Shown here in pieces: positions 33,001 to 39,000 of a stretch of 64,000 nucleotides of DNA. The stretch lies in NCBI GenBank assembly GCA_037379345.1, contig CM074519.1, positions 32,018,103-32,082,102 on the forward strand, given 5' to 3'. Source of the stretch: Perna viridis (lineage: Eukaryota). Made by a program: the position numbers. Numbering within the stretch: position 1 is the first letter of the stretch; the number at the start of each line of letters is the position of its first letter.

Positions 33001-36000
33001 ATACTTAGATATTGTTAATGATTCGGTATTTCTTTCCGAGCATATTGTATTCTAAAGAGTTGTAAATATTTTCCTGGTGATTTGTGTCTTCTTGTAGCTT
33101 CACTTGTAAGTCGGAGATAAATATTTTTTTAAACTTCGTGTTTCATTGTTCCTTTTCTTTGAAATAATCAAAATTAAAAAAGGTCATCCTCTGTTTCAGA
33201 TGAACTTTAGATGATATTCTTTAAAACAGACAAAAAGTGAAACATTAATTTAACATATACTGAATAATTGAAGTATAATTGTGGTTATATGTATGAACGA
33301 ATCTGTAAAACAGATATTTGGTTAGGCTTTGAATTTATGTATTATGTAACATGGCGCATAGATGTATTTAATCTAATGAAACGTATTTCTTTGAAGAATT
33401 TTGTTCTGGTTTTAACCGTTTTACAGAACGCTAATGTTAAAAATGTTTATCAAGTAGTTGGTAAGTCTTGGGTTGCCAGTAATGTGGTGTTTTGAATCGA
33501 ATAACAAAATTATGGCATAATGTTAGAATGCATATCAGAATTACATAAATATAACGGTAGCGACAAAGCCAATGTTGTTAAATAGATTGATTCAGATATT
33601 GTATTACTTTCCTAATTGTCCAAGACGTATTTTACGAATACGCTGCGACGGCGCAACGATTTTTACTAAGATTGGCAAAATAAAATAAAGCCGATATAAA
33701 GACCTAGCTTTAATGAGCTTACTACCCGTATCAACATATGTATAATCTGTAGGCACATACAGTGCATAACAAAAACAAATAACATCGACAGTTATACATA
33801 GTATACATCCACTGTTCTAATCAGAAAAAAAAACCATTCGTGACCGAATAACGTAAGCGTTCTTTAATACAATGACGTCACAGCTTACGCGCGATTTAAT
33901 GTTTGTGTAATTCGACCACTGGCTGTTCTGTAGTAAGGCAATACACTCCTTTGGTACTATAGACGTGGAAGTTTTCGAGGCAAAATAATTTCTTATGCAA
34001 AATTAAATGGTTAGACGAAGAAATTATTCCCTTTCCCGATTTCTTTATGTAATGCATAGTTACGTCATAATTATTCATTTAAATATTTTCTTCAAAAAGA
34101 AATTTGAAGCAATGCATTATTACCACAGAATTGTGAGTGAAACTGAACAAACCACTAATTACTTAACTGAAAGCGTTTTTAATCAAGAATTTCCACATCT
34201 ATAGCCTTAAACTTTTACAAAACATTCATAACGATATTTTTGAGTCACAGTTGCAATGAGTATGTTACAAGTCTTACGGGGCTTGGGACTCCTCCTAAAA
34301 GATAACAGTTTGGCAGTGAAATTCATGAGCATAATATTTATAAAATTAAAAATATTGTTAACAATAATGACAATAAATAAACACAAAATATGTACAGTGT
34401 CCAATTTACATGGCAACAGCGTAGATTTAAACAATTAATACGATGGTCCGATTTTACACATTAGTATACATTTGTAGATAACTATAAAAACGGCATAGAT
34501 TCTGTCAATTGGATCTACCTTTTTAAAGAGAACTATTTCGTTCAGTTCACTTTTTCAGAGACAAAATAGCACTATAAGTAGGTACATTGTAACAGGTTTA
34601 TCTATTTTATCACATAAGGTCACAACCTCTTCCCATCATTCCTAGTTTGACGAATGTATACTTCCTCTAATGAGCAAGGGCGATAATCGTTCAAATTGCA
34701 ACAAGTGATGAGTTGTCAAACGGAACGTCCAATTGCGTAGATATATAACGTCATTTCCTTCGGAGTCTAATACCGAAAGGACGTGAGCAGTTTCTTTTTC
34801 TCGTTTGTGTTGGTTGACTAGTAAAGACTAGTTTTAATATCAGAAAAATATTTGCGATGATAGAGAAATTTCATCAAGTGCAATAGTTCAGACGTGATTA
34901 TTGTTCATAACGTCTACAGCGGGCATAATCATCATTTCGACGAATTTCAGTGATGAGTGAGTATGAATGGTATTCCACTGAATACCATTTCTGCGAAAGA
35001 AGTCATTATGCTCGCCCTCTTTGTAGTATCGCCCATTAAGATTTGATTCAAAGCAGTCTGAATACCACCACCCACCACGATAATGTACTGCGCAATTATT
35101 TATAGATCGTCTATCGTTGTCACGGTCGAACGTGCTAAATTCCATTCCGTTGTGGTCGTCGCGTATCGTTGTCATTGAGTCACCTGCGTTGCCATGGTAA
35201 CGCGAGATATGCAGACGATAATTCTCCCTCTCGCTTTCTATCCTGAAACTGTCATATATTGCGTAGTATTTGTTCCCGTTCCATTCTTCCATATCAATTC
35301 GTAGTTTGTAGCTACCTGAAAAACCAACAAAATTGTAAATTCGTTATCAGCACTAAAGTCAGTCCCCTAAAAGACCAACGGCAAACACTATTTAAAGAAA
35401 AATTAATCATACTAGTGTATCAAAGCTTATGAATGGCTTCATTCAGATTGTAAAGTATCAATAGATAAATTGTTAAAGCAAGTCTTTTGAAAACAACTCA
35501 TGTAAACAATTTGTACACGATGTACATTAAACAGGGACAATAGATATAACTTTCTATACTAAAACGCAACCTACATTTAAAGATTTTATAATTAAAATCT
35601 AACAGGATATGTAGTAAACTCGATTTCTATTCTTTTGAAGGAAGGAATGGTCTTTAGAATAAACCAATGTCAGCGCGAAGATACCCAATCCAGAGGAAAG
35701 GGCCTCCTAGGGTAGAAGTTAATGTACTTAAAGTTGACGCAGACGGAAACAGTATTTATGATGAGGATTTTGACCCGAATTTCTGTCACTGCTATCCGCA
35801 AACAAGTAGCAAAAGACTGCCTTCTATGATTTACGATGAGCTAAAGTGTGATCATGAACAGTCTACGTATATTCAACCAGCTCAAAAATCTGTGTTTACT
35901 TATCCCTGGACTGCCAACACAGTAGCTGGAAGGGAGGAATTATTTGACGACAGAGATTCCCTAAAAAGCGGTAAATTAAGTGTCATTGCGGAAGAAGCTG

Positions 36001-39000
36001 ATGTTCACGTGACAAGAACAGCGCCGCCATTTGCAAGCCCAACAAAAACAAACGAAAGAACGAGAGTACCATATTCCGCTCCTATAGACCCAAGTCGTTG
36101 GGAGAGTCATGGACCAGATTTTAGGAGGGCACATTCGGAGAACCGACTTTACACAGGAGGTAGACCAAGGACTTTAGATTCAAGGGAATTTCAAGGAAAA
36201 TACGTCGACCCAAGTAAGTGTATAATTGAGAATAACTTCATACATTAATTCATGTTTATGCGTTTACTTTATAGCAGATTTTGGACTTTTTTGTTTTGAT
36301 TTTAAGTGTAGTGTATTAATAAATTATCTGTATTATGGAATAGTGCAAATGAACTCAGACCTAAGAAAACAAGTGTCTCAATACTACTTACTGGTCGTTT
36401 ATCTTCATGTATCAAAGTGAACAAGGACAGCCTTTAAAAGCTACCTAACTAGTTAGTCTTTTATTAAAGTAGGGAGTACACGATATGATTGGAGCAAAAC
36501 AATGAAATAATATTTTAAGTACAATTATGTGAAAGTTGTAACATCTCTTCGTTAACTCAAAATAATGTTTTCCTTTGTTCCATTTAGAGGATGGTCAAGT
36601 GTACAAATTTAATGTCAACTATGGAAAGAAGAATGTAAGAGCTTTCAGAGAAGCGGACAACACAATAAGAGCATCCCCTAATGAGTTCAGATGACCTGCA
36701 TTGTCTGCAAAGGGAAAAGTTGACTAAGAAACACTAAAGGGGACAGATGGTGTCTTTGATATGTAACTCATTGCAGCATTACAACATGTGCTCAATTCCA
36801 TATATCTATGATGTTCATTTTAACATGAAAATCTTTTTTTATCTTTTCCAACTTCCGATAATATTGAGATTTCTTGTATAGGAAGTACGTTTTTAAATAA
36901 CTTGAAGTTTGTTTGCACCATATAGAAGATTCTAATAAATGTCTAACTTAGAACTTGTATAGTGAATCTTTGCGCCCAAGGGTATGTTAAACATTTCTTT
37001 TCCAACTACATACAACTTTTCAATTACTTACCTTGAGTAGTTAGTTGATGGATATGATTGTTGCCTAACCAGAATTCGCCATTCTGATCCCCAAAGCCAT
37101 GTTTATAATCATGCCAACTTCTGTAAAAGTCAACGGATCCGTCCTGCCTGCGCTGGAACACTGTCCAACCTGAAAGTTATAGAAAAAGTGTTAAAACTAC
37201 AATCATGGACATTAACGCGTAATCAAAAGTCTTTATAGAACGCAGATTATGTCTTGGGTAAACATACAACTAAAAGCTTTTGAAATGATACGTCTGTAGT
37301 ACTCTAACTTTAATTTTCATCAGCTCATTATTAAATGGTAGTTCAATGTGTGCTAAAAGCTAGAGCGTCGTCCAACAATTGTGAATTGTATTAGGTTTGA
37401 TCCGGATACAAAACTTACCTGTTCCGTTAACGACTTTGCACAACACTTTGAAAGGTTTCTTGGCCTTGTCCGGTTTAATTTTGATGTAGTAATCACCTTC
37501 GTATTTCATTCCTCCAGATTTGTGAACCTCGTCACAATCTGAAACACAAGAATTAGAAACATTAGAGTCATCGCCCTTTGAACAACCATTTCGCGATACA
37601 TCATAAAATCGGAAAAAGCTAGCGATTATGCCAAACATAATAATTAAAAAAATATATTTGTACTTGGGCATAAATGAATAATTCTGGAAAAAATTAAAAC
37701 AGGTACTTACATCAAGGAGTCGATAATTATTTTCAAACGAGATTGCCGATGATAATAGGTATTTATACATTTTCGTCGCATTAGATTATTAAAAAGACCG
37801 AGATGAGTAGCAATTTCAATCACTTCATACGAATCATATCTTTATTCTCCTAATCTAAAGAGTTTCTAAATTATCTATTCATTCTATTCAACTGACGCAA
37901 AACCTTTAAGTTTCAAAGGTTGAATTAAATTAGGATTTTACGCCTAGAACTTTATTCACTCAGTAAACATACGGGAAAAGGCAACAAAATCTTGTTTTGC
38001 CAACCATCAATTAATACAGCTTATCACTTATTCATGTATAGTACGTTTGAGAGTGACCGTCATGCAGGTCGGGGTCACGGCTTTGGCAAATGACCAATAA
38101 ACAAGGTATAAAGCGAACTGGTACAGCGCGTACCGCAATAACATTATAAAATATGACGTGTTTTAAATAAACTATGATGATGGGAAAAAATGAGTATGAT
38201 CACCGACTCTGATCTTCCCATCTTCTGCCAAGGATGTCATTCACAGTTTATCAAAATACTTATAACAATCGATGTTCAAATAGAGACCACTGTGTATAGT
38301 AGCAGTTTGCAGGGTTCTTTAAGTAGTAGTCTTTGTAAGAATCATGCAAAATCTGAAAAATGTGATACACCCCAAAAAATGCTAGGTATTTTTATTTTCG
38401 TAATTAAGTTGTTTTATGGGTCTTTATTATGAAATATGTAATTATTCATTCCAATCGGTCTGCTCTTAGAAGATAATCAACATTGAAAATCCAATAGATT
38501 CTATTGTATTTGAGTGTCATTTACATAGTTCTCTCCCTTATTTTTGAAATCTACATTGCATTCTATGTAATTTTTATCTCCTAAGAACACGCGTTATATC
38601 ACTAACCAAATTTCTGGTTAATTTCTGTTAATGGCAATTCAAACAAAATATCAAAAATAAAAATATGTAGGCTTTTCATCCATGAATCACATTTTGCATG
38701 ATTCTTAGCTGGAGTGCTACTTAAATATCTAAACCAAAATAAACCTGCAGCAAAACACTTTCATATTACAAAACATTAAAAAAATATTATGGACCAAATA
38801 AATTGGCGATCTTTTATGCAGTTAAAAATATGTATATGTTTTAAAGAACCTCTTCTTTTTCACGATAATTAACTATATCCTGAATATCACAGTGCAACTG
38901 TATTACGGATCTGTCATAGCAATAATTATGGTTAACATTTTTGTGGCTAACCACAACTAGTCAAAGAAGAAAAACTCAAAACATTTAATGTAACCATTAG

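What the first reader, a model, noticed from the sequence alone, without database searches (positions are those of the whole stretch)
35316..37031. Complete spliced gene packed antisense into the 1.7-kb last intron of the fibrinogen-domain gene
Seen in sequence: the ATG is 351 bp from the host's last exon, the gene has its own 374-bp intron, and AATAAA (36934) lies under 100 bp from host exon 3. A plausible acceptor TTCTATTCTTTTGAAG ends at 35640, just before the ATG, so a 5' UTR exon may lie across or beyond the host's last exon (interleaved genes). Inference: because it keeps the ancestral intron, it arose by DNA-level duplication rather than retroposition. Transcriptional interference or mutually exclusive expression with the host is plausible.
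Basis: partly seen in the sequence, partly recalled or inferred. Interest (0 to 1): 0.7.

Follow-up and report, generated by a model that had tools for sequence, protein, structure and literature searches.

The report
Conserved gene nested in lectin intron
A small, real, two-exon mussel gene of unknown function sits backwards inside the last intron of a fibrinogen-related lectin gene, an ordinary kind of gene-within-a-gene that looks conserved across Mytilus mussels.

Summary
On the + strand there is an ATG at 35667, a 547-nt exon, a 374-nt GT..AG intron (36214-36587, phase 1), a 107-nt exon ending in TGA at 36694, and one AATAAA at 36934. All of it lies inside the 1716-nt last intron (35316-37031) of a four-exon fibrinogen-related (FReD) gene on the - strand.

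The nested gene is real. Both exons, searched separately, match uncharacterised mollusc proteins (83% to a Mytilus trossulus LOC protein, 47% to Pinctada). Five of 11 first hits are continuous ORFs across the exon junction, three of them on unnamed contigs 941-1829 nt long, as spliced mRNA would give.

The host is the orthologue of Mytilus FREP11. In five Mytilus species host, nested gene and upstream paralogue have adjacent or near-adjacent accessions on contigs of equal length, so the arrangement is probably conserved.

The shared phase-1 intron rules out retroposition. However, the duplication that produced the neighbouring paralogue predates the bivalve-gastropod split, so it does not explain the nesting.

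The protein has no Pfam, PDB or fold match and is mostly disordered, with a small C-terminal beta-sheet.

The 5' UTR interleaving and transcriptional interference remain untested. This is an ordinary nested gene of modest interest.

The parts
35667..36213 (+). Nested gene, exon 1 (start codon to donor; 182 full codons plus 1 nt, phase 1)
   Evidence: Sequence and translation P0001. It gave 11 homologues at E<=0.01, the best named one being M. trossulus LOC134728341 at 83%.
36214..36587 (+). Nested gene's own intron, 374 nt, GTAAGT...TTTAG, phase 1
   Evidence: Sequence. Five of 11 homologues are continuous across this junction and 6 of 11 read through the donor as ..DPSK... G+C is 0.29, against 0.44 in exon 1.
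36588..36694 (+). Nested gene, exon 2 coding part (2 nt of the split codon, 34 codons, TGA)
   Evidence: Translation P0002. BLASTP to M. trossulus: 85% over 26 aa, E 2e-14. To Pinctada: 53% over 32 aa, E 2e-10.
36695..36960 (+). Presumed 3' UTR with the only AATAAA (36934-36939). The end at about 36960 is inferred.
   Evidence: One search found a single AATAAA and no ATTAAA before 37330. The cleavage site is not determined.
35316..35666 (+). 351-nt 5' flank inside the host intron.
   Evidence: The transcription start is not determined.
35316..37031 (-). Host FReD gene, last intron (1716 nt, GT..AG on the - strand, phase 1)
   Evidence: Sequence. The flanking exons join as ..LTTQ-G-SYKL.. in full-length homologues.
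34888..35315 (-). Host exon 4 (last exon, including the stop at 34888-34890)
   Evidence: Pfam Fibrinogen_C E 1.7e-42. 91% identical to P0060 and 81% to the Mytilus FREP11 cluster.
37032..37169 (-). Host exon 3
   Evidence: Pfam Fibrinogen_C E 2.9e-21. Tiles on P0060 at 87%.
37419..37538 (-). Host exon 2 (start of the FReD domain)
   Evidence: Splice sites read. Tiles on P0060 at 85%.
46589..47159 (-). Host exon 1 (ATG, signal-peptide-like N-terminus, coiled-coil region; donor GTAAGT, phase 1)
   Evidence: Sequence. Tiles on P0060 at 81%. The exon sum 571+120+138+428 = 1257 nt gives 418 codons plus the stop.
11256..13726 (+). Ancient paralogue ('B type') of the nested gene: exon 1 11256-12291, phase-1 intron 12292-13451, exon 2 13452-13726
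   Evidence: tblastn E 3e-7 and BLASTP E 3e-9. Profile-profile comparison: 98.7% probability, E 2.4e-16, over the module that spans the intron. Its orthologues in Mytilus are neighbours of the FReD gene.

Best explanation
This is a real, independently transcribed protein-coding gene (217 codons, two exons). It lies in the opposite orientation entirely within the last intron of an intact four-exon fibrinogen-related lectin gene, the orthologue of Mytilus FREP11.

It belongs to an uncharacterised family so far seen only in molluscs. The proteins are mostly disordered. They carry a conserved CxC[FY]P..S...[IL]PSM.Y[DE]...C.H motif and a small C-terminal three-stranded beta-sheet. The coding sequence for that sheet is split by a phase-1 intron that is conserved across the family.

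Shown:
- The gene model, its conservation and its splice junction.
- The intactness of the host.
- That it is not a retrocopy.
- That it is not a recent copy of the paralogue 22 kb upstream.

Inferred:
- It has its own promoter within the 351-nt 5' flank.
- It ends at the AATAAA at 36934, about 70-90 nt before host exon 3.
- It came to lie in the intron through a local DNA-level rearrangement that predates the divergence of the window's mussel from the Mytilus species.
- Because polymerases on the two strands would collide, the two genes are probably expressed mostly in different cells or at different times, rather than being functionally coupled.
For: - ORF and splice arithmetic hold.
- An ORF this long appeared in 0 of 100 simulations.
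- Exon 1 gave 11 hits. Five are continuous across the predicted junction; three of these are on unnamed contigs whose longest copies are 941-1829 nt, and the other two are annotated models on chromosome-scale records. Six read through the donor.
- Exon 2 is conserved on its own.
- A profile search found 34 relatives at E<=1e-3. All 8 of the 10 looked up that carry a source name are molluscs.
- The paralogue has its intron at the same position and phase.
- In the tree, the A type and B type each include both gastropods and bivalves, with SH-aLRT 98 on the separating branches.
- The host's exons tile onto 414-417-aa proteins.
- Accession adjacency of host, nested gene and paralogue:
  - M. edulis: CAG2186650 (B), CAG2186651 (FREP11), CAG2186652 (nested).
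  - M. coruscus: CAC5397098 (FReD), CAC5397099 (nested), CAC5397100 (B).
  - M. trossulus: XP_063448990 (FReD), XP_063448991 and -992 (nested).
  - M. galloprovincialis: XP_076106692 and -693 (FReD), -694 (nested), -698 (B).
  - M. californianus: XP_052072477 (B), -478 (FReD), -485 (nested).
  - In each species the contig lengths are equal.
- Unnamed contigs of 1699 nt and 10595 nt are listed for both a nested-gene ORF and a FReD last-exon ORF.
- No repeats, target-site duplications or second copies surround the gene.
Against: - There is no transcript evidence from the window's own organism. The only 100% match (P0003) is the unspliced genomic ORF.
- The transcription start and the 5' UTR are unknown, so 'entirely within the intron' is shown only for the coding sequence and the poly(A) signal.
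- Conservation of the nesting rests on accession order and equal contig lengths, not on coordinates. In M. trossulus and in the M. edulis RefSeq set, the B paralogue's accession is far from the other two, which shows that numbering is an imperfect proxy for position.
- The function is unknown. There is no Pfam family, no PDB sequence match, no fold match at E<=1e-3, and the ESM Atlas best score is 0.79.
- Nothing here bears on expression of either gene.
Confidence: 0.85

Rival explanations
1. The nested gene is interleaved with its host rather than strictly nested. A non-coding 5' exon would lie beyond or across the host's last exon and splice to the AG at 35640.
For: The pyrimidine-rich string ending in AG at 35640 exists. 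M. trossulus and M. edulis each list two accessions with an identical protein for the orthologue, which fits transcript variants that differ in their UTRs.
Against: The acceptor is AAG, not YAG, and no stronger acceptor lies in the flank. A TATTTAA at 35389 and 351 nt of flank leave room for a promoter inside the intron. The two isoforms could equally differ at the 3' end. No transcript data are available here.
Confidence: 0.2
2. It is a recent DNA-level duplicate of the neighbouring paralogue at 11256-13726 that landed in the FReD intron.
For: The two genes are on the same strand 22 kb apart and share intron position and phase.
Against: The two share only about 27 aa at 56% identity plus the C-terminal module. 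In the tree, the nested gene groups with gastropod and bivalve A-type proteins and the neighbour groups with gastropod B-type proteins, each with SH-aLRT 98. Motif classes do not overlap: the PWT motif is in 24 of 25 A-type and long-form proteins and 0 of 8 B-type proteins; the NW motif is in 7 of 8 B-type proteins and 0 of 25 others.
Confidence: 0.03
3. It is a retrocopy, a decaying pseudogene or a chance ORF in the intron, or a transposon-borne ORF.
For: It is small, lies in an AT-rich intron and has no known domain.
Against: It has an intron at the ancestral position. There is no poly(A) tract, flanking duplication or second copy. Sixty-eight columns are invariant among 6 orthologues down to about 50% identity. 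Homologues are continuous across the splice junction. The genomic neighbourhood is conserved in Mytilus. An ORF this long appeared in 0 of 100 simulations.
Confidence: 0.02
4. The arrangement is functional. Antisense transcription of the nested gene regulates splicing or output of the immune lectin gene, or the reverse, and this is why the nesting is kept.
For: The arrangement appears to be kept across at least five Mytilus species and the window's more distant mussel. The nested unit fills 1273 of the 1716 intron bases and ends under 100 nt from the host exon 3 donor. Nested genes can cause intron retention and cryptic polyadenylation in their hosts (PMC3192792, abstract and introduction passages seen).
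Against: Conservation within one family of mussels is also expected from simple inheritance. There are no expression data. The introduction of PMC3192792 reports that a study of 109 human nested genes found no clear correlation, positive or negative, with host expression.
Confidence: 0.12

Closest known systems
TIMP nested in an intron of synapsin (Drosophila to human)
   Same: A protein-coding gene lies inside an intron of an unrelated host, and the arrangement is conserved across species (PMC4860685, discussion passage citing Pohar et al. 1999).
   Different: That nesting is conserved across phyla. Here it is shown, by proxy only, within mytilid mussels. Both the nested protein and the host are unrelated to TIMP and synapsin.
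2mit in the 11th intron of Drosophila timeless2; intronic genes in general
   Same: A protein-coding gene in the opposite orientation within a host intron. Intronic genes are about 6% of Drosophila genes (PMC3786989, abstract). About 63% of human nested genes are on the opposite strand (PMC3192792, introduction passage).
   Different: Nothing categorical. According to that same passage, 41% of human nested genes are single-exon, whereas this one keeps an ancestral intron.
Intronic retrogenes
   Same: A small gene lodged in a host intron, often antisense.
   Different: Retrogenes lack the parental introns. This gene has the family's conserved phase-1 intron, and no poly(A) tract or target-site duplication.
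Mytilus FREP11 / 'fibrinogen-like protein 1' (the host)
   Same: The host's four exons align end to end with these 414-417-aa proteins at 77-91% identity. The domain is Fibrinogen_C.
   Different: It is an orthologue in a different mussel. The best named Mytilus proteins are 81% identical over the last exon.

Membership tests
Nested (intronic, opposite-strand) protein-coding gene | The coding sequence lies wholly within one intron of another gene, on the other strand | tested here: met
   The CDS 35667-36694 (+) lies inside the intron 35316-37031 (-). Splice sites were read. The host exon junction is confirmed by tiling on full-length homologues.
Nested (intronic, opposite-strand) protein-coding gene | The whole transcription unit (start site to poly(A) site) lies within the intron | not testable with these tools
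   The AATAAA at 36934 is inside the intron. The transcription start is unknown and no transcript or eukaryotic genome collection was available.
Nested (intronic, opposite-strand) protein-coding gene | Both host and nested gene are intact and functional | tested here: met
   Host: open frames, consistent phase-1 introns, 418 codons, tiles on P0060, P0062 and P0064. Nested gene: open, with both exons conserved. Expression in this organism was not tested.
Retrogene / processed pseudogene | Lacks parental introns and has a poly(A) tract and flanking target-site duplications | tested here: not met
   There is a 374-nt intron at the family's conserved position. No flanking direct repeats beyond short chance matches were found.
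Fibrinogen-related protein (host gene) | C-terminal Fibrinogen_C domain (PF00147) above the curated cut-off | tested here: met
   146.2 bits and 76.8 bits against a cut-off of 22.
Any curated protein family for the nested protein (Pfam, PDB) | Significant match to a family model or a solved structure | tested here: not met
   Pfam: no family at E<=1 for either exon and none at E<=0.01 for 20 of 20 relatives. PDB profile search: 0 at E<=10. Foldseek PDB: 0 at E<=1e-3. The Foldseek query model was low-confidence outside residues 171-210.
Interleaved / exon-overlapping gene pair | An exon of the inner gene lies outside the host intron, beyond a host exon | not testable with these tools
   There is only a weak candidate acceptor (AAG at 35640) and no transcripts.

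The most novel reading that the evidence does not exclude
The nested gene and its upstream neighbour may be the two surviving members of a tandem pair older than the bivalve-gastropod split. They would define an undescribed mollusc-specific family of disordered proteins, with a possible zinc-binding CxC...CxH motif and a mini beta-sheet encoded across a conserved phase-1 intron. On this reading, the long-kept antisense nesting of one member inside an immune lectin gene (FREP11) is maintained because transcription of one gene gates the other.
Probability: 0.1. Interest if true: 0.5.

Novelty: new member of a known kind. Interest (0 to 1): 0.27.

Why it matters
For annotation, the result gives a clean, evidence-backed model for two overlapping loci. 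Automated pipelines can merge or drop such loci.

It identifies the host as the FREP11 orthologue.

It shows that paralogue, FReD gene and nested gene form a block that appears conserved in Mytilus.

It flags an uncharacterised family, so far found only in molluscs, with two ancient subfamilies.

Biologically it is one more antisense intronic gene, which is a common arrangement in animals. It would become interesting only if expression data showed coupling with the immune lectin host.

Tried and rejected
- **Function of the nested protein: nothing found.**
  - Pfam gave no family for either exon or for 20 relatives.
  - A PDB sequence-profile search gave no match.
  - The ESM Atlas best score was 0.79, to a SPATA6 cluster, which is below the level the tool calls evidence.
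  - AlphaFold2 with 6 sequences gave mean pLDDT 42.5. With 31 sequences it gave mean pLDDT 57, and only residues 171-210 were confident.
  - Foldseek against the PDB gave 0 matches at E<=1e-3.
- **Non-coding RNA:** Rfam found nothing in the whole window at gathering scores.
- **Signs of a mobile element:** blastn of the intron against the window found only itself and two matches of 18-20 nt. Repeat finding gave only short two-copy matches.
- **Pfam scans of stop-to-stop ORFs.** From a list of 230 ORFs of 55 aa or more, searches scanned 225; the 5 ORFs left out had been scanned. Those two calls added only a zf-HIT exon at 6226-6405. The FReD exons had already been found.
- **Literature:** 'LOC134728341' occurs in 0 papers. 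A search for nested gene + intron + mollusc returned 6 papers, judged from titles and abstract starts (one passage read in one of them), and none concerns this locus.
- **Not done:**
  - The two window exons were never joined into one protein for any search or fold. Full-length analyses used database homologues, with P0004 as the first row.
  - No complex prediction was run.
  - The genome-contig collection (bacteria and archaea only) was not scanned, because it cannot hold mollusc loci.
  - Supplements of the genome papers were not consulted.
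Full report
**Observation.** The coordinates hold exactly.
- On the + strand an ATG at 35667 is preceded by an in-frame TAG 9 nt upstream.
- It opens a 547-nt exon that ends at a consensus donor (AA|GTAAGT, 36214).
- A 374-nt AT-rich intron ends in CCATTTAG at 36587.
- The frame then continues in phase 1 for 107 nt to TGA at 36694, giving 217 codons.
- Only one AATAAA lies downstream, at 36934, 93 nt before the next host exon.
- On the - strand the surrounding 1716 nt (37031 down to 35316) begin with GTAAGT and end in a pyrimidine tract plus CAG.
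- The ORFs on either side are Fibrinogen_C (E 2.9e-21 and 1.7e-42).
- An open frame of 196 codons is not expected by chance. None of 100 simulated sequences with the window's dinucleotide frequencies had one (largest 183), whereas the window has three, all exons of genes discussed here.
- The window contains no N, and it is mussel DNA, not human.

I never joined the two exons. Where a full-length protein was needed I used database homologues.
- Exon 1 (P0001, 182 aa) found 11 proteins at E<=0.01 among 40 candidates.
  - One is the window's own unspliced ORF (P0003).
  - The named ones are M. trossulus LOC134728341 (83%) and a Pinctada imbricata hypothetical protein (47%).
- Reading the sequences:
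  - 5 of the 11 (P0004, P0005, P0008, P0012, P0013) run continuously as ..Y[VIM]D[PQ]-[KR]-DG.VY[KN]F.., which is exon 1, the split codon and exon 2.
  - The three unnamed ones (P0004, P0008, P0013) sit on contigs whose longest copies are 941-1829 nt, as spliced mRNA would give. P0005 and P0012 are annotated models on chromosome-scale records.
  - The other 6 read through the donor as ..DPSK.., as genomic DNA would give.
- Exon 2 (P0002, 34 aa) on its own matches the C-termini of the M. trossulus protein (85%, E 2e-14) and the Pinctada protein (53%, E 2e-10).
- Among six orthologues, 68 columns are invariant.
- The gene is therefore conserved, and the splice junction is used in relatives.
- I found no transcript-like record from the window's own organism.

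**The host.**
- Exon 1 is 47159-46589. It starts with an ATG and encodes a hydrophobic N-terminus and a coiled-coil-like stretch. I judged these features by eye, not with a predictor.
- The other exons are 37538-37419, 37169-37032 and 35315-34888. All introns are phase 1, and the exons sum to 1257 nt.
- Translated separately, the four exons tile without overlap onto full-length proteins of 414-417 aa. One residue is missing at each split codon. Identities to P0060 are 81, 85, 87 and 91%.
- The named relatives are 'fibrinogen-like protein 1' of M. galloprovincialis and M. californianus. The same 90% cluster holds 'fibrinogen-related protein 11' of M. galloprovincialis and M. edulis.
- The host is intact, and the inner gene sits between its last two exons.

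**Is the nesting conserved?** No eukaryotic genome collection was available, so I used cluster records as a proxy.

| Species | B paralogue | FReD host | Nested gene |
|---|---|---|---|
| M. edulis (older annotation) | CAG2186650 | CAG2186651 (FREP11) | CAG2186652 |
| M. coruscus | CAC5397100 | CAC5397098 | CAC5397099 |
| M. trossulus | XP_063397396 (far off) | XP_063448990 | XP_063448991, -992 |
| M. galloprovincialis | XP_076106698 | XP_076106692, -693 | XP_076106694 |
| M. californianus | XP_052072477 | XP_052072478 | XP_052072485 |

- In every species the records lie on contigs of identical length.
- If numbering follows start coordinates, the order B, FReD, nested in one orientation and FReD, nested, B in the other is what a gene inside the FReD span would give.
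- Two unnamed contig lengths (1699 and 10595 nt) are listed both for a 193-aa nested-gene ORF and for a 134-aa FReD last-exon ORF. This fits the 1361-nt span of these two ORFs in the window.
Numbering is therefore not strictly positional.
- I rate conservation of the block within Mytilus as likely but not shown by coordinates.

**Origin.**
- The neighbour at 11256-13726 (+) is a true but distant paralogue.
  - BLASTP finds 56% identity over 27 aa around the CxC..PSM.Y..C.H motif (E 3e-9).
  - Profile-profile comparison of the two subfamilies gives 98.7% probability (E 2.4e-16) over the C-terminal R.F.G.Y.DP...Y.[FY] module.
  - In both genes a phase-1 intron interrupts this module right after Y.D[PA]. 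The gene is therefore not a retrocopy.
- The duplication is old.
  - A profile search of 1.84 billion representatives gave 34 hits at E<=1e-3. I fetched 25. At least one of them, P0037, a repeat protein, looks like a false positive.
  - Of 10 looked up, the 8 with names are all molluscs: Littorina (two proteins), Haliotis (two), Elysia, Biomphalaria, Tegillarca and Potamilus.
  - Motifs split the family cleanly.
  - A quick IQ-TREE tree of 29 rows separates a B clade (the window's B gene with Littorina, Haliotis and Elysia) from an A clade (the nested gene with bivalves, Haliotis, Littorina and Biomphalaria), with SH-aLRT 98 on both sides. I left out P0003, P0006, P0007, P0009-P0011, P0031, P0040, P0045 and short fragments.
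  - The two copies therefore separated before bivalves and gastropods did. That this split is Cambrian is my recollection, not a tool result.
  - The shared intron consequently says nothing about when the gene entered the FReD intron.
- Because the host's flanking exons encode contiguous parts of one domain, the nesting must have come from a local DNA-level rearrangement. Either the small gene moved into the intron, or the host's last exon moved across it. This is inference.
- There are no transposon remnants or flanking duplications.

**The protein.**
- It has no Pfam family, no PDB sequence match and no significant fold match.
- AlphaFold2 with 31 sequences predicts disorder (mean pLDDT 57) except for residues 171-210 (block means 77-86). 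These form a three-stranded antiparallel sheet that spans the exon junction.
- The CxC...CxH spacing suggests metal binding. This is speculation, and some long-form relatives lack the CxC.

**What remains open.**
- The transcription start is unknown.
  - A TATTTAA at 35389 would allow a promoter inside the intron.
  - Two identical-protein isoforms in M. trossulus and M. edulis hint at UTR variants but do not locate them.
- Interference between the two genes is plausible in general (PMC3192792, abstract and introduction passages) but untested here.

**Comparison and verdict.**
- Antisense intronic genes are common.
  - They make up about 6% of Drosophila genes (PMC3786989, abstract).
  - About 63% of human nested genes are on the opposite strand (PMC3192792, introduction).
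  - Conserved cases such as TIMP in synapsin are known (PMC4860685, discussion passage).
- The orthologues are already annotated as uncharacterised LOC genes. No paper in the library mentions LOC134728341.
- This is a correct observation of an ordinary arrangement. It has two modest extras: an apparently conserved three-gene block, and an undescribed mollusc protein family.

Noticed in passing
window 11256-13726 (+): This is the two-exon B-type paralogue of the nested gene (345 full codons, a split codon, then 90 codons; phase-1 intron 12292-13451). Its Mytilus orthologues (426-433 aa, uncharacterised) have accessions next to the FReD and nested-gene pair in several species.
   Followed up: yes
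window 6226-6405 (+): This ORF matches Pfam zf-HIT (E 2.4e-9, above the cut-off). No PAPA-1 domain was looked for exon by exon.
   Followed up: partly
window 8378-8767 (+) and 25239-25604 (+): Two stretches give near-identical translations (..CPRWWNGVPLAC.MLGLSGYNTENLTANH.GAPCWERCHVPRTLKNPAVVF..). This is probably a dispersed repeat. Neither has a Pfam match.
   Followed up: no
window 27678-28990; also 4917-5129 and 26599-26763: A large tandem array of a 41-nt unit (32 copies, 89% matches) lies between the paralogue and the FReD gene. There are smaller 30- and 31-nt arrays as well.
   Followed up: no
window 57450-59450 (-): A run of broken ORFs looks like reverse transcriptase. The RVT_1 match is only E 0.12, below the cut-off. 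It is probably a decayed retroelement.
   Followed up: no
window 36460-36465: TTTATT on the + strand is AATAAA on the host's strand. It lies inside the host intron, within the nested gene's own intron, and is a potential cryptic poly(A) signal for the host pre-mRNA (read).
   Followed up: no
cluster records: In Haliotis cracherodii and H. rufescens the A-type and B-type proteins lie on contigs of the same length, which suggests the same chromosome. In Littorina saxatilis the contig lengths differ. This hints at old linkage of the two paralogues that was lost in some lineages.
   Followed up: partly
window as a whole: Protein identities to the five named Mytilus species are only 77-83% for both host and nested gene, whereas unnamed records reach 86-91%. 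The window therefore comes from a mytilid outside those five species.
   Followed up: partly
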